Source of the DNA: the human T2T-CHM13v2.0 reference genome, Homo sapiens
Strand: one strand, 5' to 3'
Assembly (NCBI RefSeq): GCF_009914755.1
Contig: NC_060940.1
DNA length: 64,000 nucleotides
Below are positions 7,440 through 63,384 of the stretch, piece after piece (position 1 is the first letter of the stretch; the number at the start of each line of letters is the position of its first letter). The notes under the pieces are model-generated. The model searched no databases. It saw nothing but the letters and a program-made list of their open reading frames with translations, and was not told the origin of the DNA. A program made the position numbers and the translations under genes.

Positions 7440-7540
7440 GTGCTCACTTCAGCAGTACATACACTAAAATTGGAATGATACAGAGCAGATTAGCATGGCC
7501 CCTGCACAAGGATGACATGCAAATTTTTGAAGCATTCCAT
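7440..7540 (+). pseudogene. U6 snRNA processed pseudogene (retrocopy)
   Basis: Near full-length match to U6 with CpG decay and ACAGAGA->ACAGAGC; A-rich tail 7542-7574; TSD AAA(G/A)TGTTATTATG at 7426-7439 and 7571-7584. Confidence 0.95.
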
Positions 7541-7914
7541 GAAAACATAAAAATAAAAACAAAATAAAATAAAATGTTATTATGGGGTACCTTCCCTAAG
7601 AACAGAATGACCTTCTTTGTAATAAATTATACCTCCACCACAAAAAGGGGGGTAAAGAAAAACTAGTATTTGGGGTATTCTAGTATCATTCTATGATATT
7701 AGAATGATTTATCTTTTTAATATCTTTATTTTTAATTTGTGTAGGTACTTAGTAGTTGTATATGTTTATGGGGTAAAATGGTTTGTTTTGTGCTAGGGAG
7801 AGGAATTAAAAAGCGACTAAAACATTTTATATTGAAGTTCATAAGAAATAATCCTTAATCTTCACTTCTCTCCATTTTTCCTCCTAAATCTAACTTATCT
7901 GGTTTTCTGAGAAG

Positions 7915-18250: not shown

Positions 18251-19300
18251 ACAAGGGTTTTGGGTAAAGACAAAAATGGGTAATTGTTCATACAATGTAA
18301 AACTGCCCACTGGTGAACAGTTTTCAATATGTGAAAAAATTATAACTTCAAGTCTTTGTTTCTCACCAAATGGCTGTCCTGGTAATTTGTTGTTTCAAAT
18401 AATTCCTTTTCAATGAAATCTTTACTCCCAGATCAAAGTGGATAGGAAATGTTGCCAGCTTATCTTTAAGCTGGACAAACGAATCCTTGAATTTAATAAG
18501 ATTTCAGGCACCTAAGTGCAGGATACTTAATCATAAAAAAGCTTCAGGGGACTCTCCTGGAACTGTGCCTACAGGGAAGCATCATTCCATAGCCAGCTCC
18601 GGGCTGGTAATCTGGCGTTGGAGGTACATACTAGTTGATGCACCTAGACTCATGCCTCTAGGGAAGGCAGTAAATGGCAGTCCTGGTAGTGCCCTAGGAG
18701 AGAAAATGACAGGACTCCAAATTTACTTTTAAAGGGGGCTATGAGGGATGGCCTATCTTTCTGTCTTCTCCATTACAGGTCCAAAAACTAGGCAGAGTTT
18801 TCAAAAACATTTCTAGGAAGGATAAAATTTGGAGAAGAGGATTTGTAAGCATAAAGTAATAACATCTTTCTTGGCTTCTGCCAGTTAAAGGCCACCATGA
18901 TTTCCACTCTTGTTCCTCAGGGCCATGGAAATGGATCAGAGCAACAAAAAAATAGCTGCTGGAATCTTCACAGCCTTGTATAAAGACTGCATGTTCTCTG
19001 TGAACTGTTCCCTTCAACAAAGACATGGCAAACTCAGCGTGACTACTGTTTATAAGTAATCCCCCATGCTGAGGGCTAGGCTGGATGAGGCTGGGTTGTT
19101 ACAGGGGTCCCAGAAGCTCTCCTGTATTAGGTACAGACCAGGAAGTGGCTGGCTTAAGAGCACAGAGCTGGGATCAAACTTTATTAAAACACACTGGCCC
19201 ACCCCACCAGGCATGTAGATTCTCAGAGCAAGCAAACAAGACATACTAAAACATACAAATGCATAACTCATTTTCCTGGTGTTTCAAATATTTATTTTAG

Positions 19301-19420
19301 GTAGTAAAGGCTTTTGTCGTTCTAAATCCTGATTACAAGTCACATGATCAAGAACAACTAATAAAGGAGATTCAGGAGCATGTTAAAAAAACTACAGCAC
19401 CTTACAAATATCCCAGAAAG
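19301..19420 (+). CDS. ACSM3: ACSM3 coding exon
   Basis: TTTTAG acceptor, GTAGGC donor; [40 protein letters not shown]. Confidence 0.96.
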
Positions 19421-19816
19421 GTAGGCATCCTAATTATAACGAATATTTGCTCAGTGTTGTGGACAATTTCAAGTGTTTATTTTTACATTTTAATGAATAT
19501 TTTCTTCACACATGCTGCACCACATGTCCCAAACTGAACTGATGACATATGGGTAAGAATCAGAATCTTTGAGATTAAAATGAAACCCTGAACCTATTTT
19601 GTTTGGTCCTTTGGCTTACTGGACTCACAGTAAATACTTAATATCAAGACAACTTTCCTAACAATACCCTTTTCCCTATTTTGGCTGTTACCCAAAACCC
19701 ATTCCAAAGACTATTCTAATTCTTCCACCTAGAATTCATAATCAAACTGCTATATAATTGGCTTTATGTAAAGATAAAAATTTCCAGGCTAATTTTCTTC
19801 CCCTTGATGCCAACAG

Positions 19817-19903
19817 GTAGAATTTATTCAAGAGCTGCCAAAGACTATCAGTGGGAAGACAAAAAGAAATGAACTGAGGAAGAAAGAATGGAAGACAATT
19901 TAA
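19817..19903 (+). CDS. ACSM3: ACSM3 last coding exon (A10 catalytic Lys motif)
   Basis: CAACAG acceptor; VEFIQELPKTISGKTKRNELRKKEWKTI-TAA (stop 19901-19903). Confidence 0.96.
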   Translation, partial: VEFIQELPKTISGKTKRNELRKKEWKTI

Positions 19904-20062
19904 AGTTGTTTCATTAATTACCATATCTATAAAACAAACATAGTATCTGTCAATCTCTAGAAACCACAAGATGATGGAGAGGTCATAAAAACTGTGGTAG
20001 TATGCTTAGAAACTGTTGATTTAAAATATCTTGTGGTTATGATATCAGAGGCTAAATTTTGA

Positions 20063-20068
20063 AATAAA
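20063..20068 (+). terminator. ACSM3: Candidate ACSM3 polyadenylation signal (further AATAAA at 20275, 20491, 20569)
   Basis: First AATAAA downstream of the stop codon; which signal is used cannot be determined from sequence. Confidence 0.5.
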
Positions 20069-20654
20069 ATATTTGGCAAATTCCTCCACATTAGTGTCAA
20101 TGTTCCTATCATTTCTTAATATAAAAATAATACCATCAATTGCTGATTAATTTTTAAATGTATAGTATAGAAGCAGTTTCTGAACCAGATCTCTGCTACA
20201 TAGGTTTTCAAACTTTAGTTGACTAATTCTTCTGATATGTTGATATACAAATCAGAACCAATGTTCAAGCCTGAAATAAAACTAAAGAACTTATAAAAGT
20301 TTTTAGAAAAATATAAAATATCAGTTAGAAGATTATGATAATCTCAAAGTACAAGAATCTACCTGAAAATAGACTAGGGATTTTTATTAGTCACATTTTT
20401 TGCAAATAATTTAAAAATAGTTTAGACTTGTTTCAAGGTCTAACTATAAAAGAAGGATCATATACTATTGTTGCTTATTATATGTAATCTAATAAATACT
20501 GTTTACAAAAGATTACACTTGTGGTTCCTGAAGAAAGTATGGTAAATGCAGTAAACATTAATATATAAAATAAAAATAAAATAGTGTAAGATGTTATCAG
20601 AATACTCATGTTTGGAAATTCAAGGAACAATTAGGATTCATACATGAAAGGTTA

Positions 20655-21998
20655 TCAATTCCTCATTGAAGGCCTGAGTCTCAAAGAATTTTTGGTGGAA
20701 ATACTTAAATTTCTGTCACAAATATGGCTTGTTTCTGGAGAACTAAAAGTGAGTCCCCCTGTGGAATGAGATGGAACCATGCTGTTGGCTCTTTCCTTTT
20801 GAAGTGTTTGTTCCCATTTGAAATAACCACAACATTTTCTGTTTTCTTGGTATTTCCCGATAGGGCAACAATAGAAGACTTTTCCATGGTTCGGTCCATT
20901 ATTAGAAACAACAAGTCTCTTAGATCTCCGACCACACTTGCATAATGGAGGTGTCATTTTCCCACTCTTCCATGGCTCTTGTAGGTTAACTGTAGAAGTT
21001 AATATAGATGGGAGACGCCTCCAGGAAGAACTTCTTACTGGGGAGCAATCAGATGATGTAGGCTTTTCTTCATGAATAGTGAAGGGTTGTTTTTTTGCTG
21101 GTGGGAAAGCTTGGGGACTGCATGGATTCCTTTTGGTACCACCTGAAAGAAGAGGATGTTTCCCCAAAACTAAAGGATGAGACATATTGGCATTAACTCT
21201 GTTGAAGGTACTTGATTTGTGTTCAGGTAACTTAAAGGCAGAAATATCTGAACCTGGATCTTTGGCTTCTTTTACATTATAAATAGTAGTGTGAGGACTC
21301 TTGTACACAATAGACTTAGAAGTCTCAGATTTTTGAGGAGTTTCCTCTATGTCTCCAAAGTTTTCATGACTTGACATTTCCAATTCTTTCAAAACCATTA
21401 ATCTTTCTCCAGAATTAAATGAAATCTCTAAGTCTGAGTCACTAATGGGAACTGTACAGTCTACGTTTTCCTCAGGCTGAGATGCTGGCAGTAAAACCAC
21501 ATCCTCCCAATCAGCCAACACAGGTAAACAGTCCAGAGTAGAGCTCATTTCCAAATCAGAAACATGATGAACAGTTGGAACGGTGGTAGAAACAAGTACC
21601 AATTCTGAACCAACTGTTGAAGCCTTAGATTTGGTATTAAATGCAAGATGTTCATTTTTTCCTTGCTTTTGCATATAGATAGGTGAATTCAAGGTAGGAG
21701 ACTGCAACTGCCCCACAGAAGTAGAGGACTTAGTATTAAAAAGAGGTAAGGAACTTTTGACATTGTGAAGACTTGCTTTTATATTGTTTTTTACTTGTAA
21801 TTGATCCTGTTGTGCCTTTATAGGAGAATTTGCACAAATTGACTTCATTTGAACTTTTTCATGAGGATTTATTATATTTTTAGGCTCCTTATTATATATG
21901 CTGGGACCCTGGATGCTAATGTTACAGGCAGACATTTCTTCAACTTGAATTGTATTCAAATTTCTGGCCAGAATGCTGAAATTCTTCTTAGTGGGAAC
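20655..21998 (-). CDS. ERI2: ERI2 long terminal exon: Ser/Pro-rich linker plus GRF zinc finger
   Basis: ATAG acceptor at 21999-22002, in frame with the 434-aa ORF; CKCG...GPNHGKVFYCCP...CGYFKWE at 20811-20942; exons 1-9 total 2076 nt = 691 aa. Confidence 0.96.
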   Translation of the reverse strand, partial: VPTKKNFSILARNLNTIQVEEMSACNISIQGPSIYNKEPKNIINPHEKVQMKSICANSPIKAQQDQLQVKNNIKASLHNVKSSLPLFNTKSSTSVGQLQSPTLNSPIYMQKQGKNEHLAFNTKSKASTVGSELVLVSTTVPTVHHVSDLEMSSTLDCLPVLADWEDVVLLPASQPEENVDCTVPISDSDLEISFNSGERLMVLKELEMSSHENFGDIEETPQKSETSKSIVYKSPHTTIYNVKEAKDPGSDISAFKLPEHKSSTFNRVNANMSHPLVLGKHPLLSGGTKRNPCSPQAFPPAKKQPFTIHEEKPTSSDCSPVRSSSWRRLPSILTSTVNLQEPWKSGKMTPPLCKCGRRSKRLVVSNNGPNHGKVFYCCPIGKYQENRKCCGYFKWEQTLQKERANSMVPSHSTGGLTFSSPETSHICDRNLSISTKNSLRLRPSMRN

Positions 21999-22193: not shown

Positions 22194-22282
22194 CTTGTTC
22201 AACGACCTTGTAATTTTCATTACACAACCATCTCTGATCATTTTCCAAGCAAGAAGGGCAGTATTCCGAGAATCGTCCAACC
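22194..22282 (-). CDS. ERI2: ERI2 exon 8, Exo III Asp
   Basis: CTCAG acceptor, GTTAGT donor; GLDDSRNTALLAWKMIRDGCVMKITRSLNK. Confidence 0.95.
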
Positions 22283-22685
22283 CTGAGGATACAGATATCA
22301 AACACTGAATTTAGTGGTACTAGTACTATTTCCTTAGTACTAAAGAAATAACTTAAAAAGAAAAACACCACTTGTGTAGAAATTGGAACACAGTTTTAGT
22401 TTTATGACCATCTACTAATTTTAATCATGATAAACTGGTCTTGGAAGTGGAAGGCTATGGCAGCATTACCAGTGAAAGACAAGCTCGTCCACATTTATAG
22501 AGGAGGATATGAAAATGTATTAGACAGTTCCCCAAAATGTGGCCAGCGTTCTGCAGGAACCAGGATTTGTGAATAATCTAATAGTCTTGTTCAGTTTTTT
22601 CACTAGTCCATTCTATTATTTGAGCACTTGTTTAATCTCCATTTGATTTGGCTCATTCTTTTCATTCTTCTTAGCAACTAGAAAG

Positions 22686-22699
22686 CCACTAGATGGCAG
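22686..22699 (+). promoter_or_regulatory. CTCF core motif in ERI2 intron 7
   Basis: CCACTAGATGGCAG fits CCASYAGRKGGCRS at every position. Confidence 0.7.
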
Positions 22700-22887
22700 T
22701 GTATCTTACAATAGTTTATGAAAGTGGTAATTTGAAAGTCTTAGAAACAATGTGAATTGTTTAGATTAGGAGTTTTTTTTTTTTAGGCTGAAGATATCCC
22801 TTACTAATGACATTACCAAAAAATGAAATTCATATGAAGTATTTTTTAAAAGTCAAATGGCTTACATAATTTTTAATGTATACTAAC

Positions 22888-22969
22888 CAGAATGTTCTCG
22901 TCCTGAGAATTCTATTCCTACTTCCTGCAAGGCACCACTTAGTCCTTTTGGTTTTCTCCTATAGAAAAG
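22888..22969 (-). CDS. ERI2: ERI2 exon 7
   Basis: TTAG acceptor, GTTAGT donor; LFYRRKPKGLSGALQEVGIEFSGREHS (catalytic His). Confidence 0.95.
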
Positions 22970-23232
22970 CTAACCAATAAAAAAAGATATATTTAAAAGA
23001 AGATTACTATTTTAAAGACTATGTATTAAACACTTTTCATAATTTTTAGTTCTATTAGATTTAGAATGTGCTTATTTTTTGTGTGTTGTTTTTAAATACT
23101 TTAAGAAATGCATTTATGTGACCAGTACAAAAGAAAGTATCTTCTTTGCAGAAACCCATGCCCATGTGTAGGATAAAAGTTAATCATTTTTCCATAGAAA
23201 AAAGTAAACATGCCCCCATTTTTTACCATTAC

Positions 23233-23333
23233 CTTGTAAGTTGCTCTGAGATCAATCCAAGAATTTAAAAACACAGGTTTTAACAGCTGCTTTCTTTTAC
23301 ACTCATACTCCAGGCAAACCCCCAAGTCCCAGT
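23233..23333 (-). CDS. ERI2: ERI2 exon 6, Exo II motif
   Basis: TGCAG acceptor, GTAATG donor; DWDLGVCLEYECKRKQLLKPVFLNSWIDLRATYK. Confidence 0.96.
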
Positions 23334-24133
23334 CTGCATTAGGTACATTAAAATAGAACAAAGTCAATGATGCCAGCATTTTTTACTTATGCTGCCACCA
23401 TTTACAAATAGAATGCTAGAAGATCATATAAAATAGAACAGTATGATTTCATTGCTCTGCTAATATCTAAAAATTATTCACTTTATATAACTTACTATTA
23501 ACAAGTTAGGTTGATGACTAAATTTCAAAATGATTTCTTAAACACCCAGTAAAACCTTATTTCAGAAAGAAGAGTAACATGTTAAATTACAAGGACTATA
23601 TTTTCTATATTCTAGGAAAATATTAATGTTATTGAGAAACCAAACATTTTATAGTAACTGGAAACCAAATATGACTATCAATGCTATCTTATCAATGACA
23701 CAGTATTGCTATTAATGACTATTAACAGCAATGCTCTAACACAGTCATACAAAAAACCTACTTTAAATGGCTCATTTTTTTTTTCTTTTAAGTGTCAAAG
23801 CATAAAAGCAAAGGATGTTGAGCTGATGAAGACTGTAGAAAATAGCATAAGAGTGTTCACTAAATCATCTTTGCTTAATTCTTAACAGTGGAACTCTAGA
23901 AACATTTTTTTAAGTTCAGGCTTAATATTTTAAGGTATCCCAAAAGGTTAATTTAAAAAATATGTATTAATTTACTTTTCTTGGCTAACATCTGCTAGGC
24001 ATTTAAATTTTTTTTCCTAGCCCAGAAGATTAACAAACATAATTCTAGGTTAGCAAGTATAAAACTAGAAATAAAGAATTACATAGTGGTAATGCTACCC
24101 ATCTGTGATTAATAGGTATAACTTATTCTTTAC

Positions 24134-24290
24134 CTGACCAAGTAACAAATGCACATAATTTTACTTCAGAAGCAGAAGGCTCTGAAATCCCAGTAGCAAA
24201 AATAATGTTCTTCTGTTGCTGAATCTTATGAATCCATTTACAGAACTGAGATAAGCAAATCTTCAGAGGGACTCCTTCATCAACTTGAGC
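24134..24290 (-). CDS. ERI2: ERI2 exon 5
   Basis: CTCAG acceptor, GTAAAG donor; AQVDEGVPLKICLSQFCKWIHK...LCAFVTWS. Confidence 0.95.
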
Positions 24291-24627
24291 CTGAGTAGAG
24301 AGTCACAAAAGCTGAATTCAACAATCAAATTCCATTATTATTTAGCATGTTTTATAACTGTGGAGAAAGATTAATGGTTTTAAAAGAATCAGAAATGCCA
24401 AGTCATGAAAACACAGTGTACTGTGGGAAGACATAACAAAGTGGTTCTAACTGGCAAAGAGTTTATTTAGTGGAAAGAGGTAAAAACACGTGGGAAAGAA
24501 AGAATATTTAGAACCCACCAAGGTAAGAAAGATTAGGTTGATAAAAACTAAAATCACACAGAAATATGATCATTAAGTCCAGACTGACATAAATCATAGA
24601 CAAATTTGAGTCACTTAATTTCCATAA

Positions 24628-25640
<1,013 letters not shown>

Positions 25641-25726
25641 CACTAAATAAATCTAATTTCAAATGGTATAATAACTTTTATTTTCTTTTTGAAACTGACT
25701 TCTGAATTTTAAGATTTGCATCATAC

Positions 25727-25854
25727 CTGCTTTATGCCTGTCAATTCCATGCAAAATTCTGAAAGAATTGGATGTTCCTGAGGTTGAACATAAGCCTGGA
25801 ACTCAGAGTCAATCTGTCCAGTTGATGTGTTCAGCAACACTGCTGGAAACTCAA
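25727..25854 (-). CDS. ERI2: ERI2 exon 4
   Basis: TTTAG acceptor, GTATGA donor; EFPAVLLNTSTGQIDSEFQAYVQPQEHPILSEFCMELTGIKQ (ERI1-family motif). Confidence 0.96.
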
Positions 25855-26363
25855 CTAAATGAAAGAATAATCAATTGACAGTTGAATAAATAATTTTTAA
25901 ATTAATCCTGTAATCATCCTAAATTAAACATGTTACCATTTTAATTAAACAACCAGTTTTCAGTAAAAGCATACTAAAATGACCAAAGCAGTGTGACATA
26001 AAGGTTATAATAAAGTTATGCTAAAGTCAAAATATTGAAGTTATGAGCATGTTGTCTTAAAAGAAAACAATATAATTAAATAAATATAAAAACCATATGG
26101 AATATAAAATTTACTTTTTTTGCAAAGGCATTTTTTTCAGTTTCTATGCCATTGAGGTGTTGTATGTAATATAAAACAACTATTTTATATAATAACACAT
26201 TTAGGTATTTGAGATTTTGCTCTTTTTTATTCAACATAAGTTTTGCATTAAACTACCAATGCATAGACCATCCTGTTTTCTTAAACTTTTGGCTGATTCA
26301 GATCTATAAACTTTAAAGTGACTCATCTAGTGCCAGCTTTGGCCATTCGTAGCCCAGACTTAC

Positions 26364-26447
26364 TTATTTCCTGGCTATGGTGGTGCTTCCCATCATTCCA
26401 GCATGTCGATTCAAAATCAATGACAATTAAGTAGTCAAACAACTGCT
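26364..26447 (-). CDS. ERI2: ERI2 exon 3, DEDDh Exo I motif
   Basis: TGCAG acceptor, GTAAGT donor; QLFDYLIVIDFESTCWNDGKHHHSQEI (D-F-E). Confidence 0.96.
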
Positions 26448-26533
26448 CTGCAAAAGATCAAGTTGTTCTTATGCTTTACCAGTGCTGAAAATGCAAGGCT
26501 ACAAAATGCAAAGAAACTAAGCATACTACTCAC

Positions 26534-26601
26534 TGGATTTGCTTCTTCCGAGATTTCCATTTGCTGGCGCAATTGACTTTCTCCTAATTAATCCAAGCTG
26601 C
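26534..26601 (-). CDS. ERI2: ERI2 exon 2
   Basis: TTTTAG acceptor, GTGAGT donor; QLGLIRRKSIAPANGNLGRSKS. Confidence 0.92.
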
Positions 26602-28384: not shown

Positions 28385-28967
28385 TGTAAAAAGTAGAGGT
28401 TCCTCTTCAAAGACTTCCTTCCCCGTCTAATTAGGAATAAATAGTAACTTCTCTTAGAGCAAAATTTATTCAAAGACCTGTGCTAACATTCTTAAATATC
28501 TGCTAGATATAATAAAGAAATCAATGTACTTTATGTTCTTAGCTCCCACAATTTAGCCTAAATATTTGCCCTGGCATGCTTATACTGGTCCAATCAAACA
28601 TTAGGTCATAGCCTGTTCCTCTTCCTTACTTAAAAGTGTTTTTACCTTTCTCAGCATTCCACAAGTTACTTCCTTCTTCCTTTGTTCTCCTCTGCCTTTG
28701 CCTCTTTTAAAAAGTTCTATGTTGCTAGTCAGTCGGGACAAATACAGAATGTGAGGTCCCGTTCCAGCCAAAGGAAACCGGACACAGCAGTAGGGTGGAC
28801 GCGCCACGTTATAAATGACCCTGTCTCCTTTGTTCAGTGTACTCTCCTGGCAAAACTGCTGGCGAGTGTACCCTTTCTGCAGGAAGTAAAAATGGCCTTA
28901 CTAAATAAATTAAATTTAAGTTTAAGTTCTATTTCTTTACAGCACCGAGGAACGAGCATTTCGAACA
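28385..28967 (+). mobile_element. Solo ERV1 LTR (LTR10-type, probably LTR10C)
   Basis: TG...CA termini, 4-bp TSD GGTT (28381-84, 28968-71), TATAAA 28810-15; family from recalled consensus. Confidence 0.85.
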
Positions 28968-29338
28968 GGTTGAACACCTTGACAGATTCAGTGTGTGGCC
29001 TGCCTGAGACCTCCAACCAGTCTGCAGGGCACTGTCACGTCCAGTCGTTTCCCAAGGCCTAAAATAGGCAGGCACTGGCTCAAGGCCACACAGTCAAGGC
29101 CCCAGGGTTCGTCCGCCTCGGGCTCCTGTCACCCTCGGGTAGAAGGTGGCCCAAGGCTGAAGACCGAGGTCCAGGGAGGCGCCTTTCCAACCGTGCCAGA
29201 GAGGGCAGGTCGCAGACGCCGGGGCTGCGGGGAATAGAGGCCCTCACCGCAGATGCCACCTGCCGTGCCCTGCTCTGCGGCCAACGCCAGCGCTGGACCC
29301 GGAGCTACCCGCCCCCGACCCGGAACTCCCTCGAGTAC

Positions 29339-29361
29339 CGCGCGAGCCGCTTGGTCGCCAT
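29339..29361 (-). CDS. ERI2: ERI2 exon 1 coding part (MATKRLAR)
   Basis: ATG at 29361 in strong context (GGGAATGG); GTACTC donor at 29338; phase 2 matches next exon. Confidence 0.9.
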
Positions 29362-29426
29362 TCCCGACACTCCTTGCTTTTCCAAGTCCAGCTGCCGGAA
29401 GTCGCTCGACTTCTACTTCCGGTCCG

Positions 29427-29441
29427 TTCAAAAAGCCCGCG
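29427..29441 (-). promoter_or_regulatory. CDE/CHR tandem element
   Basis: Minus strand CGCGG-GCTT-TTTGAA: CDE, 4-nt spacer, canonical CHR. Confidence 0.75.
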
Positions 29442-29559
29442 AGGCTGAGGGGCGGTTGTTGTTGGCAGCTGTGGCTAAGGAGGGGAGAACCTCTGCTCCC
29501 CGCCCGTCTTCTCTTCTGCGTTTCCCGGGCTAGGGGGCGTGGGGAGTGGTTTTAGGCGG

Positions 29560-29636
29560 CGAAGCCGCTCGGCAGCACCTTCCTTCTTTGCCAGGCAGAC
29601 GCCCGTTGTAGCCGTTGGGGAACCGTTGAGAATCCG
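29560..29636 (+). other. REXO5: REXO5 non-coding first exon (5' end approximate)
   Basis: CCG|GTAACC donor at 29637 pairs with the CTTTCTCCACAG acceptor ending 29882, two nt before the ATG; TSS not determinable. Confidence 0.6.
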
Positions 29637-29884
29637 GTAACCGATGCGGACGGTAAAGCCGTTTGGGTTAGAGCGGCGCGGGTGTCCAGTCCGCGGAACG
29701 GGGAGATCGTTGGCACCTTCGCTTTTTTAGGGGAACGGGGATAGTTCGGTAAACTGAATTGAGAAGCGGATCCGAGGGAGGTTGAAAGCTGTCAAGCCCG
29801 TGTAGCTCTCCCGCTAGGAGGCGGCACGCGGGGGAATAGGGGCGCTGGAGTTTCCCCAGCTCTACCTCATCTTTCTCCACAGCC

Positions 29885-30022
29885 ATGGAGCCAGAGAGGG
29901 AAGGGACCGAGAGACACCCCAGGAAGGTCAGGGAAAGCAGGCAGGCCCCAAATAAGCTGGTCGGGGCAGCTGAGGCGATGAAAGCCGGTTGGGATCTCGA
30001 GGAGAGTCAGCCCGAGGCCAAG
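29885..30022 (+). CDS. REXO5: REXO5 RNA exonuclease 5 (NEF-sp), first coding exon
   Basis: GCCATGG Kozak; MEPEREGTERHPRKVRESRQAPNKLVGAAEAMKAGWDLEESQPEAK; GTGAGC donor. Confidence 0.92.
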
Positions 30023-30227
30023 GTGAGCAACGGGGATCCCGAGCAGGCGGCCCTAGGCGGTTTGGAGCTCCCGGACCCTCGCCCAACCGCCGTCGGGGGC
30101 ACTGGATTCGGGCGGGCTCTCCGCCCTGGCCTCTCCGAACCTGATCCCTGATCATTAAAATGGGAATGAGTGTAATACCACCTTCCTGCAACAAGGCTGT
30201 CATTGGCTGTCACTGGGATAGTGAGTC

Positions 30228-30705
30228 GGCCGAGTGCGGTGGCTCATGCCTGTAATTCCAGCACTTTGGGAGGCCGAGGCGGGCGGATCACGAGGTCAGG
30301 AGTTCGAGACCAGCCTTGTCAACATGGAGAAATCCCCGTCTCTACCAAAAACACACACACAAAATTAGCCAGGCGTGGTAGTGGGTGACTGTAATCCCAC
30401 CTACTTGGGAGGCTGAGGCAGGAGAATCGCTAGAACCCAGGAACCAGAGGTTGCAATGAGCCAAGACCACGCCATTACACTCCACCCTGGACAACAAGAA
30501 AGAAATCACGTCTCAGAAAAAAAAAAAAAAAAAAAAAAACTGGGATGGTGGGCCGGGTGCAGTGGCTCACGCCTGTAATCCCAGCAGTTTGGGAGGCCAA
30601 GGCGGGAGCATCATTTGAGGCCAGGAATTCAAGACCAGCCTGGGCAATATAGCAAGGACCCCATCTCTTAAAAAAAAAAAACAAAAAACAAAACAAAAAA
30701 AAAAC
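30228..30705 (+). mobile_element. Full Alu followed by an Alu left monomer
   Basis: Alu 30228-30540 with TSD ACTGGGAT(A/G)GTG; monomer 30550-30705. Confidence 0.92.
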
Positions 30706-47353: not shown

Positions 47354-47442
47354 GTTTTCCTGATTGTGAAAACTTTTTACTTACCAAATGTAATGGTTCT
47401 ATAGCAGACAATAGTCCTCTCTTTGGACTTGACTGTGAAATG
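47354..47442 (+). CDS. REXO5: REXO5 coding exon with Exo I (DCE) motif, GC donor
   Basis: CCTAG acceptor; FPDCENFLLTKCNGSIADNSPLFGLDCEM; frame with the next exon requires ATG|GCACGT. Confidence 0.88.
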
Positions 47443-47641
47443 GCACGTACTACTTTTAATTTTTCAATTGGAGTGTTGCAAGCTGAGGTCTAGTAGAAAA
47501 TGATTTCTTGAGTCTAATGCACTAATGAACGAATACATTCATTTTTAGTATTCTGTTTTAATAGCTGAAAGTAGGTCCTTTTACTCACACTTTAGAAAAC
47601 TTAGATCTGTATTCCAGGATAAAGAATAAATATCACATAAG

Positions 47642-47935
<294 letters not shown>

Positions 47936-48747
47936 CACGTTTTCCAACTAGTTACTATGTTTAATCAGGTCTTTGCATGTTGCTAGAAGTTGATTCCTTG
48001 TGTTTGAAGAAGTATTTTGTTGTTGCTGCCATGAGGACTTTGCCTTAATTGTTGGTTTGGCTTAGTTTTACACCTTGAAGATCAGAAATAGGATTTCCCT
48101 GCTTAAGTTCCCCTCGTGCTTTGCTTTATCTAATTGTAGTAAGCCTCTTTTCAAAGACAGTGCATCCCCTCTCAGTACTCAGGAAACAGTTTCTCAATTC
48201 TTAATAGAGTAACTAAGACCTAAAATTTGAGAATCTGACATATCAGGGTGTATATCCTGTCCTTGCCTGTTAGTGGCTATGTCGCCTTAGACAAATACCC
48301 CTAACCTATCAGCCTCGGCTTCTCCCTCTGTGAAGTGGGGGTAATAATAAAGCCTACCTCAAAAGGTAATTATGAGAGTGGCATATATAAAATTCTTAGT
48401 ACAGCACTAGCTGATAATAGAATGGGCTTCATAAAAATTACCTATTAGTGGTATTTAGCATAATACTGGATATAGTACACACTCCATAAATGGTAGATAC
48501 AATTATTAATATTATTTGCATTCATCTTCTTTGTGCAGACTACACTGTGTTGATCCTCTTAAGTGTAACATTCAGCAGCCTGCCCAGCTTTAATTTCACT
48601 CACACTAGATCCTCTAGAAAGCAAGTTTGTGCCATTGCTGCAGGGACCCTGGTAGATTACAGTAGATGGCAGTTGACATAGTGTAAATAGTAAGAAGAAG
48701 CAATAACTTCCACAGTTCAGCAGCCTGACTACATGTTGGTCTTTCAG

Positions 48748-48863
48748 TGCCTCACATCCAAGGGGAGAGAGCTAACACGCATCTCACTGGTTGCTGAAGG
48801 AGGCTGCTGTGTTATGGATGAACTGGTCAAACCTGAAAACAAGATTCTGGACTACCTCACCAG
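48748..48863 (+). CDS. REXO5: REXO5 coding exon (exonuclease domain)
   Basis: TTTCAG/GTATTT; CLTSKGRELTRISLVAEGGCCVMDELVKPENKILDYLT (REX1-like). Confidence 0.95.
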
Positions 48864-49972
48864 GTATTTTTCACCTTGCCTGCAGCTCTTCTAAGAGCTA
48901 TCGGGCTAGAATGGAATAATACTTAAGAATGGCCCACAGCTTCAGTTTAGTTAGGTTTTATCTACTTAAATATTATCAAAGGTTAGGGCATCACATAGGT
49001 ATATTTTAATGCTGAAATTGCACAATGTCAGTGTATAATGCTCTTGCCCTTCTTGATCTTCAATCTTCTTGTGACCTTAAGTCAGCAGAATATTATCTTC
49101 CTTGTTCCAGAATCTCCCAATTATAATCATTATCTACAACTGCCAAACAGCTAGAGCTTTGCTTTCTGATAAGACCTCATCTGAAAATCTGCAAGTCATC
49201 ATTTGGCAGTCAAGTGATGTTAGAGCTTAATCTGCCTTGACCCCCAAAACACAAACAAATATTTTTCATAACAGAAATTTGAAGCTGAAAATGTTAGTCT
49301 ACTTTTCCAAAGATTAGCATGTAATCTCAGAATGTACACACAGTGACTAGGCAAGAAGCCAGTGAAACATTACTGTTCCCATCCGTTGACGTGGCACCAG
49401 TAGATTCGTGATGACTTAGGGACAGAGAGGCAATGATAGTGATAAATACTGTCCTATTAGCAGACTTGACAATTAGATTCTTAGAGAACAGTCACGTGTG
49501 GCAAAGTTGTATGCACAAGCATGTTTGTCACAGTATTGCAAAAATGTGAGTATATAAATGTCTGAAAGTAGGGGATTAGTTAAAATATGCTGTATCTGTA
49601 TAATGGAATACTCTGTAACCATTTAAAAGGATGTGCTAAATAGATTTATTGATGTGCAAATGTGTTTATGACATATTATAAATGATAGATTCATTGTAAA
49701 GCAGCTCATGCATTATGATTACATTTTTATAAAAATTAAATATATACCTGAATCTATATCAAAAGTATGGAACGACATTTACTAAAATGTAAAAAAGCAA
49801 TCATCTCTGGGTGATAGGATTATGACTAATTTTTAATTCTTATTTGTCACTTTGGACACTAAGCATATATATATTAACAGTAATTTTAAAAAATGTTATT
49901 TTTAAAATCACTTTCCAGAGAGGAAAACTTGTTAATATCCTAGCCTGTCCATTTCTCTTTTTTTAATGAAAG

Positions 49973-50111
49973 CTTTTCGGGAATCACGAAGAAGATTCTT
50001 AACCCAGTGACGACCAAACTCAAAGATGTACAGAGGCAGTTAAAAGCACTGCTTCCTCCTGATGCTGTGTTAGTGGGCCACTCCTTAGATTTGGATCTCA
50101 GAGCACTGAAA
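49973..50111 (+). CDS. REXO5: REXO5 coding exon, Exo II motif
   Basis: AAG/GTGAGT; FSGITKKILNPVTTKLKDVQRQLKALLPPDAVLVGHSLDLDLRALK. Confidence 0.95.
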
Positions 50112-50267
50112 GTGAGTATCTGATTTAGGACTTTGCATTTTCAGTATAAATGCCTGTTCCATTTATCTCAAATCTAAAGTCTTGGGCTCTTCTCTCCCAC
50201 CCTGCTAGCCCACTTGTTTTTTCCTTTAGCATAAGACACTACTCATTTTATTCTCTTTCTTCCTCAG

Positions 50268-50362
50268 ATGATACATCCATATGTTATTGATACATCGTTG
50301 CTTTATGTCAGAGAGCAGGGCAGAAGATTTAAGCTCAAGTTCTTAGCCAAAGTTATTTTGGG
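50268..50362 (+). CDS. REXO5: REXO5 coding exon
   Basis: CTCAG/GTAGGT; MIHPYVIDTSLLYVREQGRRFKLKFLAKVIL. Confidence 0.95.
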
Positions 50363-51349
50363 GTAGGTTTGCTTATATGCTGTAATATTGTTCTGACAAA
50401 CTGCATACAAGTTAGCATGTAGTATCTAATTTAATGCATATTGCAAAATTCAGGGTTTCTGCTCTCTTTGCTTTAAACATGTTTTTTTGCATTTCTTATG
50501 AAATGAAGAAATTGTAGCAATAGAGACAGGGGTTTACATTCACAGTCGAGGCTTAATGGACAGAACTGAACCATGAAGGCAGAAGAGGTAACCAAAATTT
50601 CAAAACATAACATACCTATATGCCTATACAAGGTAGTATAACATACTTATACTGTCCTATTGTATTAAGACACATATGTACAAAGGTGTTCATTATAACA
50701 TGGTTTAAAATAGCAAAATAGAAAACCTCAAATATTCTAGAAGTCTGGTTGAGTAAATTATGGTTATCTGTATTATTGAATATTTTGTTGTTCAGAAGAA
50801 TATGATAAATCTGTTTGTGATATGAACACCTCTCTAAGACACTCCTGAGAATAAGGGATGCAGAGCAAGATCTATATATGCCTCAATATTTATATGATAT
50901 AGATTAGATTTAGTTCTATCTATAAATATATACATATATTAAGCTTTTTAAAAACACCTAAGAAAGTATTTAAGTATGTATAGACACTTATATACAAATA
51001 AAAAAGTTTCAGGAAGGCAACTTTAAACAATGGTTAGATCTGAGAAATGGGCCTGGTCCATTTCTTAGAGAAGGGCCTGGCCAGGGAGTCAGCCAGAAAC
51101 TTTTTGTTGGGTAGCCTTTTGTCCGGATGCTATGCTTGCTGTGAACAAAGCTATTCCTGATTGTTTTGCACCCCCAGTTCCTCTCGCAGGGCTGGGCAAT
51201 TAGCTGGAATAAAGGAACCTTGATTTTTGTGATGCAAATCTAATTATCAGAATTCTAACATTTTATATGTAATCAGAACACTTGAGATGGTTGAAAAAGC
51301 CTATCATTAAAAGTGCTTCCAGTATGTCAATTTTATATTGACTTTCCAG

Positions 51350-51452
51350 GAAGGATATACAGTGTCCAGACAGACTTGGTCATGATGCCACAGAAGATGC
51401 TAGAACAATCCTTGAATTGGCTCGGTATTTCCTTAAGCATGGCCCAAAAAAG
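51350..51452 (+). CDS. REXO5: REXO5 coding exon, Exo III motif (H-x4-D)
   Basis: CCAG/GTTAGT; KDIQCPDRLGHDATEDARTILELARYFLKHGPKK. Confidence 0.95.
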
Positions 51453-63246: not shown

Positions 63247-63384
63247 ATGAGGATCAAGTGGACAGAGATATCAACTGTCTATGCTGGGCCATTTAGCAAA
63301 AATTGCAATCTCAGGGCTCTGAAGAGGCTGTTTAAAAGCTTTGGCCCAGTCCAGTCAATGACTTTTGTTCTTGAAACCCGTCAG
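63247..63384 (+). CDS. REXO5: REXO5 coding exon, start of RRM (gene continues beyond window)
   Basis: CTACAG/GTAAGA; MRIKWTEISTVYAGPFSKNCNLRALKRLFKSFGPVQSMTFVLETRQ (RNP2-like VYAGPF, FxxFG). Confidence 0.92.

What the first reader, a model, noticed from the sequence alone, without database searches (positions are those of the whole stretch)
29339..30022. Two DEDDh 3'-5' exonuclease genes head-to-head on one cell-cycle-type promoter
Seen: ERI2 (IDFE / WSDWD / EHSGLDD plus zf-GRF) and REXO5 (LDCE / GHSLDLD / GHDATED plus RRM) both keep full catalytic motifs, and their ATGs are 524 nt apart. Known: they belong to different DEDDh subfamilies (ERI1-like and REX1-like), so this is not a recent tandem duplication. 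Inference: a co-regulated two-nuclease module for RNA 3' trimming or R-loop handling in proliferating and meiotic cells. This is my best candidate for an under-described system in the window.
Basis: partly seen in the sequence, partly recalled or inferred. Interest (0 to 1): 0.75.

Follow-up and report, generated by a model that had tools for sequence, protein, structure and literature searches.

The report
Shared cell-cycle promoter of ERI2 and REXO5
Two distantly related human exonuclease genes, ERI2 and REXO5, start back to back on one small promoter that is already catalogued as a cell-cycle (DREAM-controlled) promoter, but nothing yet shows that the two enzymes work together.

Summary
The ERI2 (- strand) and REXO5 (+ strand) start codons lie 524 nt apart, and the selected transcripts start 55 nt apart. 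The two proteins show no detectable similarity to each other. They fall in different DEDDh branches, so a recent duplication is excluded.

The "cell-cycle-type promoter" is real and already in print. The 54 nt between the two starts hold two inverted CCGGAAGT sites, a CHR with an adjacent CDE, and a GC box. Mueller 2014 lists both genes as DREAM-bound with this conserved CHR. Later datasets show REXO5/Rexo5 repressed through p53 and LIN37.

Co-regulation is partly supported. Both genes sit in the same S/G2-M co-expression cluster in synchronised human fibroblasts. The mouse data are asymmetric.

A functional "two-nuclease module" is untested. I found no paper that treats the pair. ERI2's activity is undescribed in the library. 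Synteny and binding could not be tested with these tools.

Verdict: an ordinary, annotated bidirectional promoter carrying a modest, testable hypothesis.

The parts
28900..30400 (.). CpG island, the only one in the window, spanning both 5' ends
   Evidence: 500-nt tiles with GC > 0.55 and CpG o/e > 0.6 occur only from 28801 to 30500. Over 29000-30200, GC is 0.63 and o/e is 0.77. The GC profile agrees.
29339..29403 (-). ERI2 exon 1: 42-nt 5' UTR, start codon at 29361-29359, 23 coding nt, GT donor
   Evidence: Hub table. Sequence, splice sites, UTR length.
29458..29636 (+). REXO5 exon 1 (non-coding) of the selected transcript
   Evidence: Hub table. There is no upstream ATG in the 181-nt 5' UTR.
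29356..29421 (+). Alternative REXO5 first exon that overlaps ERI2 exon 1 antisense by 48 nt (another starts at 29375)
   Evidence: Hub table; overlap computed. Mueller 2014 Table S3 places a LOC81691 start 29 nt to the left of the ERI2 start.
29883..30022 (+). REXO5 exon 2 with the start codon at 29885
29395..29402 (+). Consensus ETS/GABP-type site CCGGAAGT, at +1..+8 of ERI2
   Evidence: One of only 2 copies in the 64 kb window. Two or more copies appeared in 6 of 2000 dinucleotide shuffles of the island. Protein binding was not tested.
29415..29422 (-). Second CCGGAAGT site, inverted, at -12..-19 of ERI2
29427..29432 (-). CHR element (TTTGAA on the - strand), at -24..-29 of the ERI2 start and -31..-26 of the REXO5 start
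   Evidence: Mueller 2014 Table S3 lists TTTGAA at -29 of ERI2 with placental PhastCons 0.933. Uxa 2019 lists the same CHR for REXO5.
29437..29442 (-). CDE-like TCGCGG, 4 nt upstream of the CHR on the - strand
   Evidence: The only SGCGG-N4-TTYGAA composite in the window. It appeared in 11 of 2000 shuffles. Its published conservation score is only 0.008.
29450..29455 (+). GC box GGGCGG, at -8..-3 of the REXO5 start
   Evidence: A sequence match only.
29603..29628 (-). Three CCGTTG words (MYB-site consensus YAACGG on the - strand) within 26 nt, in the REXO5 5' UTR exon
   Evidence: Three such sites within 30 nt appeared in 0 of 2000 shuffles. Function unknown.
22194..26601 (-). ERI2 exons that encode the DEDDh exonuclease domain
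   Evidence: Motif positions. RNase_T match on exon 25727-25852. Exons 25727-25852 and 24135-24290 are identical to PDB 7n8v, 'ERI1 exoribonuclease 2'.
20805..20948 (-). ERI2 GRF zinc finger coding stretch, in the last exon
   Evidence: Zn_ribbon_GRF at E 1.7e-16, residues 351-398 of the translation of 20658-21998. Coordinates derived from that match.
47354..51452 (+). REXO5 exons that encode the DEDDh exonuclease domain
   Evidence: Motifs at 47428, 50076 and 51378. Exon 49974-50111 matches SDN1 (5z9x) at E 0.012. D313, inside GHSLDLD, is the residue whose D313A change inactivated the recombinant enzyme.
63280..63372 (+). First half of the first REXO5 RRM; the rest lies outside the window
   Evidence: RRM_1 at E 0.001, 19.3 bits, under the cut-off. 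Silva 2017 describes two RRMs.

Best explanation
Positions 29339-30022 are the shared, compact, TATA-less CpG-island bidirectional promoter and the first exons of human ERI2 (- strand) and REXO5 (+ strand).

The 54 nt between the two main transcript starts hold two inverted consensus ETS/GABP-type sites, a conserved CHR with a non-conserved CDE beside it, and a GC box.

Proposed mechanism. In quiescent or p53-arrested cells the DREAM repressor sits on the CHR and keeps the promoter low; DREAM binding here is published. When DREAM leaves in cycling cells, general activators of the ETS/GABP and Sp1 type fire transcription in both directions; this step is inferred from sequence only. Both mRNAs then peak in S/G2-M in proliferating human cells; this is published expression data. 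The testis bias of REXO5 plausibly reflects the same proliferation and meiosis programme; this is inference.

The products are two anciently separated DEDDh 3'-5' exonucleases. REXO5 is a proven ssRNA exoribonuclease with a published R-loop role. ERI2 is an ERI1-family nuclease with a GRF zinc finger and no described substrate.

That two nucleases share this promoter is most likely an accident of gene order. It gives co-expression, but not a demonstrated joint function.
For: Anatomy.

The motif content exceeds chance in the island. Two CCGGAAGT sites appeared in 6 of 2000 shuffles, and the CDE-CHR composite in 11 of 2000.

Published regulation:
- Mueller 2014 Table S3 gives ERI2 and LOC81691 (REXO5) DREAM '1111'. 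It places the CHR at -29 of ERI2 with PhastCons 0.933, which matches my coordinates exactly.
- LOC81691 is in their Table 1 of 148 late cell-cycle CHR genes.
- Uxa 2019 supplement, for REXO5: DREAM binding 9 of 9, phase G2M, Nutlin log2FC -1.54 with LIN37 rescue and -1.10 in LIN37 knockout.
- Mages 2017 supplement: mouse Rexo5 is among the genes up in serum-starved Lin37-/- cells.

Published co-expression: in Giotti 2018, ERI2 and Entrez 81691 are both in NHDF Cluster002, 'high at 18-22 h', peak index 7. ERI2 is on their 701-gene S/G2-M list.

Background, from the Collins 2007 abstract: about 10% of human genes are divergent pairs under 1 kb apart, and GABP binds more than 80% of such promoters.

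Different branches.

REXO5 enzymology and R-loop role.
Against: - Mueller 2014 state that for head-to-head pairs with a CHR only one gene was a late cell-cycle gene 'in all observed cases'. Their table leaves the ERI2 peak blank.
- Mouse Eri2 is absent from the Lin37-/- gene lists.
- Silva 2017 did not detect REXO5 in HeLa or HEK293T, and in mouse found it only in testis.
- There is no CCAAT box from 28591 to 30201 and no canonical TTTSSCGC E2F site. The MMB and FOXM1 columns are empty in Table S3. The promoter therefore lacks parts of the classic G2/M set.
- A CHR hexamer alone is not rare: one or more occurred in 651 of 2000 shuffles.
- GABP and Sp1 binding are read from sequence only.
- The ERI2 row of the Uxa table was not visible because the file was cut when stored.
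Confidence: 0.72

Rival explanations
1. The pair is a selected two-nuclease module: ERI2 and REXO5 are kept on one promoter because they act together or back each other up, in RNA 3'-end trimming or R-loop removal, in proliferating and meiotic cells.
For: - The two genes share an S/G2-M cluster in human fibroblasts.
- REXO5 loss raises R-loops and replication stress in K562 cells.
- ERI2 carries a GRF zinc finger. In other proteins this domain binds single-stranded DNA; that point is recalled, not tested.
- By my rough estimate, two members of a family of about 18 genes among about 1000 divergent pairs would occur about 0.001 times by chance. The family size is recalled, and the 10% figure comes.
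Against: - No paper links the two. Only 2 papers hold both current names, and 8 hold any two of six aliases; none is on the pair.
- ERI2 has no described substrate in the library.
- GFP-ERI2 was seen in the cytoplasm and centrosome, while NEF-sp/REXO5 is nucleolar or nuclear.
- The mouse regulation looks asymmetric.
- The chance estimate is post hoc.
Confidence: 0.12
2. Only one side is truly cell-cycle controlled. The CHR and DREAM regulate REXO5, while ERI2 merely shares the CpG island and is expressed broadly. Its apparent periodicity would be weak or indirect.
For: - Mueller 2014 state a general rule for head-to-head CHR pairs.
- The ERI2 peak column is blank, while LOC81691 is marked G2/M.
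- Only Rexo5 is on the Lin37-/- up list.
Against: - ERI2 is periodic in human fibroblasts and Eri2 in mouse embryonic fibroblasts. ERI2 is also marked G2 in Bar-Joseph 2008 as tabulated by Giotti, and it passed their tissue and development validations.
- The CHR lies at -24..-29 of the ERI2 start, in ERI2's own orientation.
Confidence: 0.15
3. The pair is the remnant of an old inverted duplication of a single DEDDh gene.
For: Both products carry the DEDDh motifs, and head-to-head paralogue pairs exist elsewhere (recalled).
Against: - BLASTP finds nothing between them. The best E is 4.8, over 13 residues outside the motifs.
- The exons match different branches in PDB.
- The appendages differ: a GRF finger against RRMs.
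- The catalytic motifs sit in differently placed exons.
- The Rex1/REXO1/Rexo5/Sdn5 group is shared with yeast and plants, according to an abstract seen in the listing.
Confidence: 0.01

Closest known systems
GABP/ETS-type bidirectional CpG-island promoters of divergent human gene pairs (Collins 2007, abstract read)
   Same: The starts lie on opposite strands 55 nt apart. The promoter is a TATA-less CpG island with strict-consensus CCGGAAGT sites between the starts.
   Different: There are two inverted sites plus a CHR packed into 54 nt. GABP binding at this promoter was not tested here, and I did not see it in print.
CHR/DREAM late cell-cycle promoters such as CCNB2 and CDC25C (Mueller 2014, passages and supplement read)
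   Same: A canonical, conserved TTTGAA lies within 30 nt of the start. DREAM is bound, expression peaks in G2/M, and the gene is repressed after p53 activation.
   Different: There are no CCAAT boxes nearby, and MMB and FOXM1 binding is not recorded. The promoter serves two genes that both look periodic in one human dataset, against that paper's general statement.
Bidirectional pairs of DNA-repair and genome-maintenance genes (abstracts of PMC1853124 and PMC4089025, seen in the listing)
   Same: The two genes have related biochemistry, share a promoter and tend to be co-expressed.
   Different: No joint pathway is shown for ERI2 and REXO5.
Yeast Rex1 / metazoan REXO1-Rexo5 / plant SDN exoribonucleases, and the ERI1-ERI3 family
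   Same: REXO5 has the DEDDh motifs, and one of its exons matches SDN1. The ERI2 exons match ERI2, ERI1 and ERI3 structures.
   Different: ERI2 adds a long low-complexity tail and a GRF finger. REXO5 adds two RRMs.

Membership tests
Bidirectional (head-to-head) promoter pair | Transcript starts on opposite strands less than 1 kb apart | tested here: met
   The starts are at 29403 (-) and 29458 (+), 55 nt apart. Alternative REXO5 starts overlap ERI2 exon 1 (hub table).
Bidirectional (head-to-head) promoter pair | CpG island, no TATA box | tested here: met
   GC 0.63 and o/e 0.77. There are 0 TATAWAW matches in 29000-30200.
Bidirectional (head-to-head) promoter pair | GABP bound between the starts | not testable with these tools
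   Two consensus sites are present. No binding data were seen.
CHR/DREAM cell-cycle promoter | CHR (TTTGAA or a close variant) within 200 nt of the start | tested here: met
   TTTGAA lies on the - strand at 29427-29432, at -24..-29 of ERI2.
CHR/DREAM cell-cycle promoter | CHR conserved (PhastCons at least 0.9) and DREAM bound | not testable with these tools
   Read in print only: PhastCons 0.933 and DREAM 1111; DREAM binding 9 of 9.
CHR/DREAM cell-cycle promoter | Late cell-cycle expression of the gene | not testable with these tools
   Read in print only. REXO5 is marked G2/M. ERI2 and Entrez 81691 share an S/G2-M cluster.
CHR/DREAM cell-cycle promoter | CCAAT boxes upstream of the CHR (usual, not obligatory) | tested here: not met
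   The nearest CCAAT is at 28590 and the nearest ATTGG at 30202.
DEDDh exonuclease, ERI1 branch (ERI2) | DxE, D and Hx4D motifs, and sequence membership | tested here: met
   Motifs. RNase_T at 27.6 bits, over the cut-off of 24, on one exon. Exons are identical to PDB 7n8v; the next matches are ERI1 and ERI3.
DEDDh exonuclease, REX1/REXO1 branch (REXO5) | DxE, D and Hx4D motifs | tested here: met
   LDCE, GHSLDLD and GHDATED. D313A kills the activity, in print.
DEDDh exonuclease, REX1/REXO1 branch (REXO5) | Significant profile or sequence match of the nuclease domain | tested here: inconclusive
   None of the 5 nuclease exons matched RNase_T singly. PF00929 on the genome did not find REXO5. 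PDB gave SDN1 at E 0.012, ISG20 at E 0.46, and nothing for the third exon. The spliced protein could not be handed to the profile tools.
Functionally coupled gene pair ('module') | Head-to-head order conserved across vertebrates | not testable with these tools
   No vertebrate genomes are held. The only hint is that a cattle CNV row names ERI2, REXO5 and DCUN1D3 together.
Functionally coupled gene pair ('module') | Physical or genetic interaction of the products | not tested
   None found in print. The spliced proteins cannot be submitted for complex prediction.

The most novel reading that the evidence does not exclude
ERI2 and REXO5 are kept on one DREAM/CHR promoter because they are complementary S/G2-phase 3'-end nucleases. 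REXO5 would be guided by its RRMs to the RNA strand of R-loops, and ERI2 by its GRF finger to the displaced or exposed single strand. ERI2 would then be the 'unknown nuclease' that masks the Rexo5-knockout phenotype in mice.

As a lesser point, this promoter would be a counter-example to the published rule that a CHR never co-regulates both genes of a head-to-head pair.
Probability: 0.1. Interest if true: 0.55.

Novelty: already known. Interest (0 to 1): 0.27.

Why it matters
If the pair were a true module, it would give a function to ERI2, a cell-cycle gene still filed as 'uncharacterised'. It would also explain why Rexo5-null mice look normal. As it stands, the locus is a tidy example of a very compact DREAM-controlled bidirectional promoter. 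Its value lies in a cheap, well-defined double-knockout experiment, not in a new kind of system.

Tried and rejected
- The gene tables of Fischer 2016 could not be read because the zip was too large. The 3 files searched held neither gene.
- The main text of the Engeland review names neither gene.
- Uxa 2019's table is cut when stored, so the lack of an ERI2 row there says nothing.
- Pfam on single exons found no RNase_T match for 5 of 5 REXO5 nuclease exons and for 5 of 6 ERI2 nuclease exons. Spliced proteins cannot be handed to the profile, fold or complex tools, so no structure or complex prediction was run.
- PF00929 over the window's own genome gave only 5 exon-sized matches. That is useless for counting the family, so my chance estimate uses a recalled family size.
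- Literature searches returned unrelated papers (plant work and questionnaire items).
- The two papers naming both genes are a cattle CNV table and a 16p co-expression table, the latter probably driven by copy number. Two further co-mentions are gene lists.
- Short-motif scans of both proteins found no KEN box, strict D-box or PIP box.
- Recent or ancient local duplication was rejected.
- The promoter is single-copy in the genome, so it is not part of a segmental duplication.

Full report
**1. What is in the sequence**

The window is human chr16p12.3, according to the hub note. On the - strand, ATG is read from 29361, followed by 23 coding nt and a GT donor. This is ERI2 exon 1. On the + strand, an ATG at 29885 opens REXO5.

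Splicing the annotated coding parts inside a script gave two open frames:
- ERI2: 691 codons plus stop, with 8 of 8 introns GT-AG.
- REXO5: 542 codons for the 14 coding parts in the window, with 13 GT donors and one GC donor after 47442.

All six quoted motifs are there: IDFE 40, WSDWD 152 and EHSGLDD 212 in ERI2; LDCE 231, GHSLDLD 309 and GHDATED 362 in REXO5.

Only single exons could be given to the profile tools, so domain evidence is exon by exon.
- The ERI2 last exon matches the GRF zinc finger at E 1.7e-16.
- One of 6 ERI2 nuclease exons matches RNase_T at E 4.9e-6.
- The REXO5 exon 63247-63384 matches the first half of an RRM at E 0.001, just under Pfam's cut-off.
- None of the 5 REXO5 nuclease exons matched RNase_T alone.

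Against solved structures, two ERI2 exons are identical to 7n8v ('ERI1 exoribonuclease 2'), and for exon 25727-25852 the next matches are ERI1 and ERI3. One REXO5 exon matches Arabidopsis SDN1 at E 0.012, one matches ISG20 at a non-significant E of 0.46, and one matches nothing.

Published enzymology fills this gap for REXO5. Recombinant human NEF-sp/REXO5 is a metal-dependent 3'-5' exoribonuclease on single-stranded RNA and is inactive on DNA. It is killed by D313A, and D313 lies inside the GHSLDLD I located (sections and passages of Silva 2017 read).

**2. Not a duplication**

BLASTP between the two spliced proteins gives nothing better than E 4.8 over 13 residues, away from the catalytic motifs. 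The exons match different branches in PDB. The appendages differ, and the motifs lie in differently placed exons. An abstract seen in the listing groups Rexo5 with yeast Rex1/Rex3, REXO1 and plant Sdn5.

**3. The promoter**

The only CpG island in the 64 kb window spans about 28900-30400. By the hub table, the selected transcripts start at 29403 (ERI2) and 29458 (REXO5), 55 nt apart. Two alternative REXO5 first exons start at 29356 and 29375 and so overlap ERI2 exon 1 antisense.

The 54 nt between the main starts are almost filled with recognisable words:
- CCGGAAGT at +1..+8 of ERI2.
- The same word inverted at -12..-19.
- TTTGAA (a CHR) at -24..-29, in ERI2's orientation.
- TCGCGG (CDE-like) four nt further upstream.
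- GGGCGG at -8..-3 of REXO5.

The two CCGGAAGT words are the only ones in the whole window, and the CDE-N4-CHR composite is also the only one. In 2000 dinucleotide-preserving shuffles of 29000-30200, two or more CCGGAAGT occurred 6 times and the composite 11 times. A bare CHR occurred 651 times, so the hexamer alone proves nothing.

There is no TATA box and no TTTSSCGC. The nearest CCAAT words are at 28590 and 30202. The 701-nt core is single-copy in the genome.

**4. The promoter is already catalogued as a cell-cycle promoter**

Mueller et al. 2014 (NAR; passages and supplementary Table S3 read) list both ERI2 and LOC81691, the old name of REXO5.
- Both have DREAM '1111'. I take these four flags to be the four DREAM ChIP sets the paper names: E2F4, LIN9, LIN54 and p130.
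- Both carry a TTTGAA with placental PhastCons 0.933, at -29 of the ERI2 start.
- The CDE scores only 0.008.
- The MMB and FOXM1 columns are empty.
- LOC81691 is marked G2/M, and the ERI2 peak is blank.

These positions agree to the base with mine. LOC81691 is also in their main-text Table 1 of 148 late cell-cycle genes with conserved CHRs.

Uxa et al. 2019 (supplementary table row read) give REXO5 a DREAM binding score of 9 of 9, RB/E2F 3 of 5, and phase G2M. Repression by Nutlin is log2 -1.54 with LIN37 and -1.10 without, at about 5 TPM. That file is cut, so ERI2's absence from it is uninformative.

Mages et al. 2017 (passages and supplement read) list mouse 2610020H08Rik (Rexo5) among the 387 genes up in serum-starved Lin37-/- NIH3T3 cells. 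Eri2 is not on their lists.

**5. Are the two sides co-regulated?**

For co-regulation:
- In Giotti et al. 2018 (passage and supplements read), ERI2 and Entrez 81691 are both in NHDF Cluster002, 'high at 18-22 h', peak index 7, 'S/G2-M associated'.
- ERI2 is in their final 701-gene list as 'Uncharacterised'.
- Mouse Eri2 is S/G2-M in embryonic fibroblasts.
- Their tabulation of Bar-Joseph 2008 marks ERI2 as G2 and LOC81691 as G2/M.

Against co-regulation:
- Mueller 2014 say that in all head-to-head CHR cases they looked at, only one gene was a late cell-cycle gene.
- Mouse Eri2 is not de-repressed in the Lin37 knockout lists.
- Silva 2017 detected Nef-sp only in testis among mouse tissues, and not in HeLa or HEK293T.
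- The mouse Rexo5 symbol has no hit in Giotti's files.

My reading is that the two genes are co-expressed in cycling human cells, that the strength differs by side and by species, and that the testis bias of REXO5 fits a DREAM-repressed gene. The last point is inference.

**6. Mechanism**

Shown in print: DREAM binds here; REXO5/Rexo5 rises without LIN37 and falls after p53 activation; both mRNAs peak late in the cycle in one human dataset.

Shown here: the element layout and its departure from chance.

Inferred: the CHR is the DREAM landing site for both directions. ETS/GABP and Sp1-type factors supply the bidirectional drive; Collins 2007 (abstract) reports about 10% of human genes in such pairs and GABP on more than 80% of them. 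The lack of CCAAT boxes and of MMB/FOXM1 binding suggests a mainly repressive CHR.

**7. The 'module'**

REXO5's role in R-loop removal and replication-stress avoidance is published for K562 cells (abstract, discussion and passages of Lee 2024 read). [quoted passage not shown]

ERI2 has no dedicated paper in the library. Three papers hold ERI2 with 'exonuclease' and 13 hold it with 'exoribonuclease'; none has ERI2 in its title.

No paper treats the pair. Two hold both current names, and 8 hold any two of six aliases; those I opened were gene lists.

GFP-ERI2 was cytoplasmic and centrosomal, while NEF-sp is nucleolar or nuclear.

A rough estimate is that about 1000 divergent pairs and a recalled family size of about 18 give roughly 0.001 such pairs by chance. 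That is suggestive but post hoc. Synteny, binding and genetics could not be tested with the tools at hand. I put the module at about 0.1.

**8. Verdict**

Co-expression has partial published support. The functional claim remains an untested hypothesis that would be cheap to test.

Noticed in passing
window 29603-29628 (- strand sense), in REXO5 exon 1: Three CCGTTG words, which match the MYB-site consensus YAACGG on the - strand, lie within 26 nt at +145..+170 of the REXO5 start. Three within 30 nt occurred in 0 of 2000 shuffles of the island. They lie at the edge of, or outside, the promoter stretch that Mueller 2014 scanned (my coordinate conversion). They may bear on B-MYB control, or on testis A-MYB control of REXO5; that link is speculation.
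   Followed up: partly
window 21051-21116 (- strand), ERI2 residues 539-560: There is a weak Pfam match to Cyclin_N2, the cyclin-A APC/C-binding region (E 0.08, under the cut-off). It covers FTIHEE at residue 550, which fits the ABBA-motif pattern. About 0.5 such matches are expected by chance in a protein of this length (my estimate). No KEN box, strict D-box or PIP box was found. This could hint that ERI2 protein is handled by the APC/C.
   Followed up: partly
window 19271-21998 against 19817-20512: By the hub table, the last ERI2 exon (- strand) and the last ACSM3 exon (+ strand) overlap tail to tail. Other ERI2 transcripts run as far as 3124, through the ACSM3 gene body.
   Followed up: no
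window 7440-7546 (+): A full-length U6 snRNA match (Rfam RF00026, 90.1 bits, model positions 1-105) lies inside an ACSM3 intron. It is annotated as the pseudogene RNU6-944P. It is the only Rfam match at gathering score in the window.
   Followed up: yes
window 47443-47444 (+): The REXO5 intron after the exon that carries the first catalytic motif (LDCE) uses a GC donor instead of GT.
   Followed up: no
window 29200-29800: GC skew changes sign across the promoter, from about -0.14 left of 29400 to +0.28 right of 29600. Each gene's sense strand is therefore G-rich just downstream of its start. From memory, this pattern is typical of R-loop-prone CpG-island promoters.
   Followed up: no
window about 30222 onward: An Alu-like repeat, recognised by eye, begins right after the island downstream of REXO5 exon 2.
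   Followed up: no
literature, not a window place: In Giotti 2018's NHDF sheet, the REXO5 row (Entrez 81691) has an empty symbol field. This may be why the gene, although in the same S/G2-M cluster as ERI2, does not appear in their final 701-gene list.
   Followed up: partly
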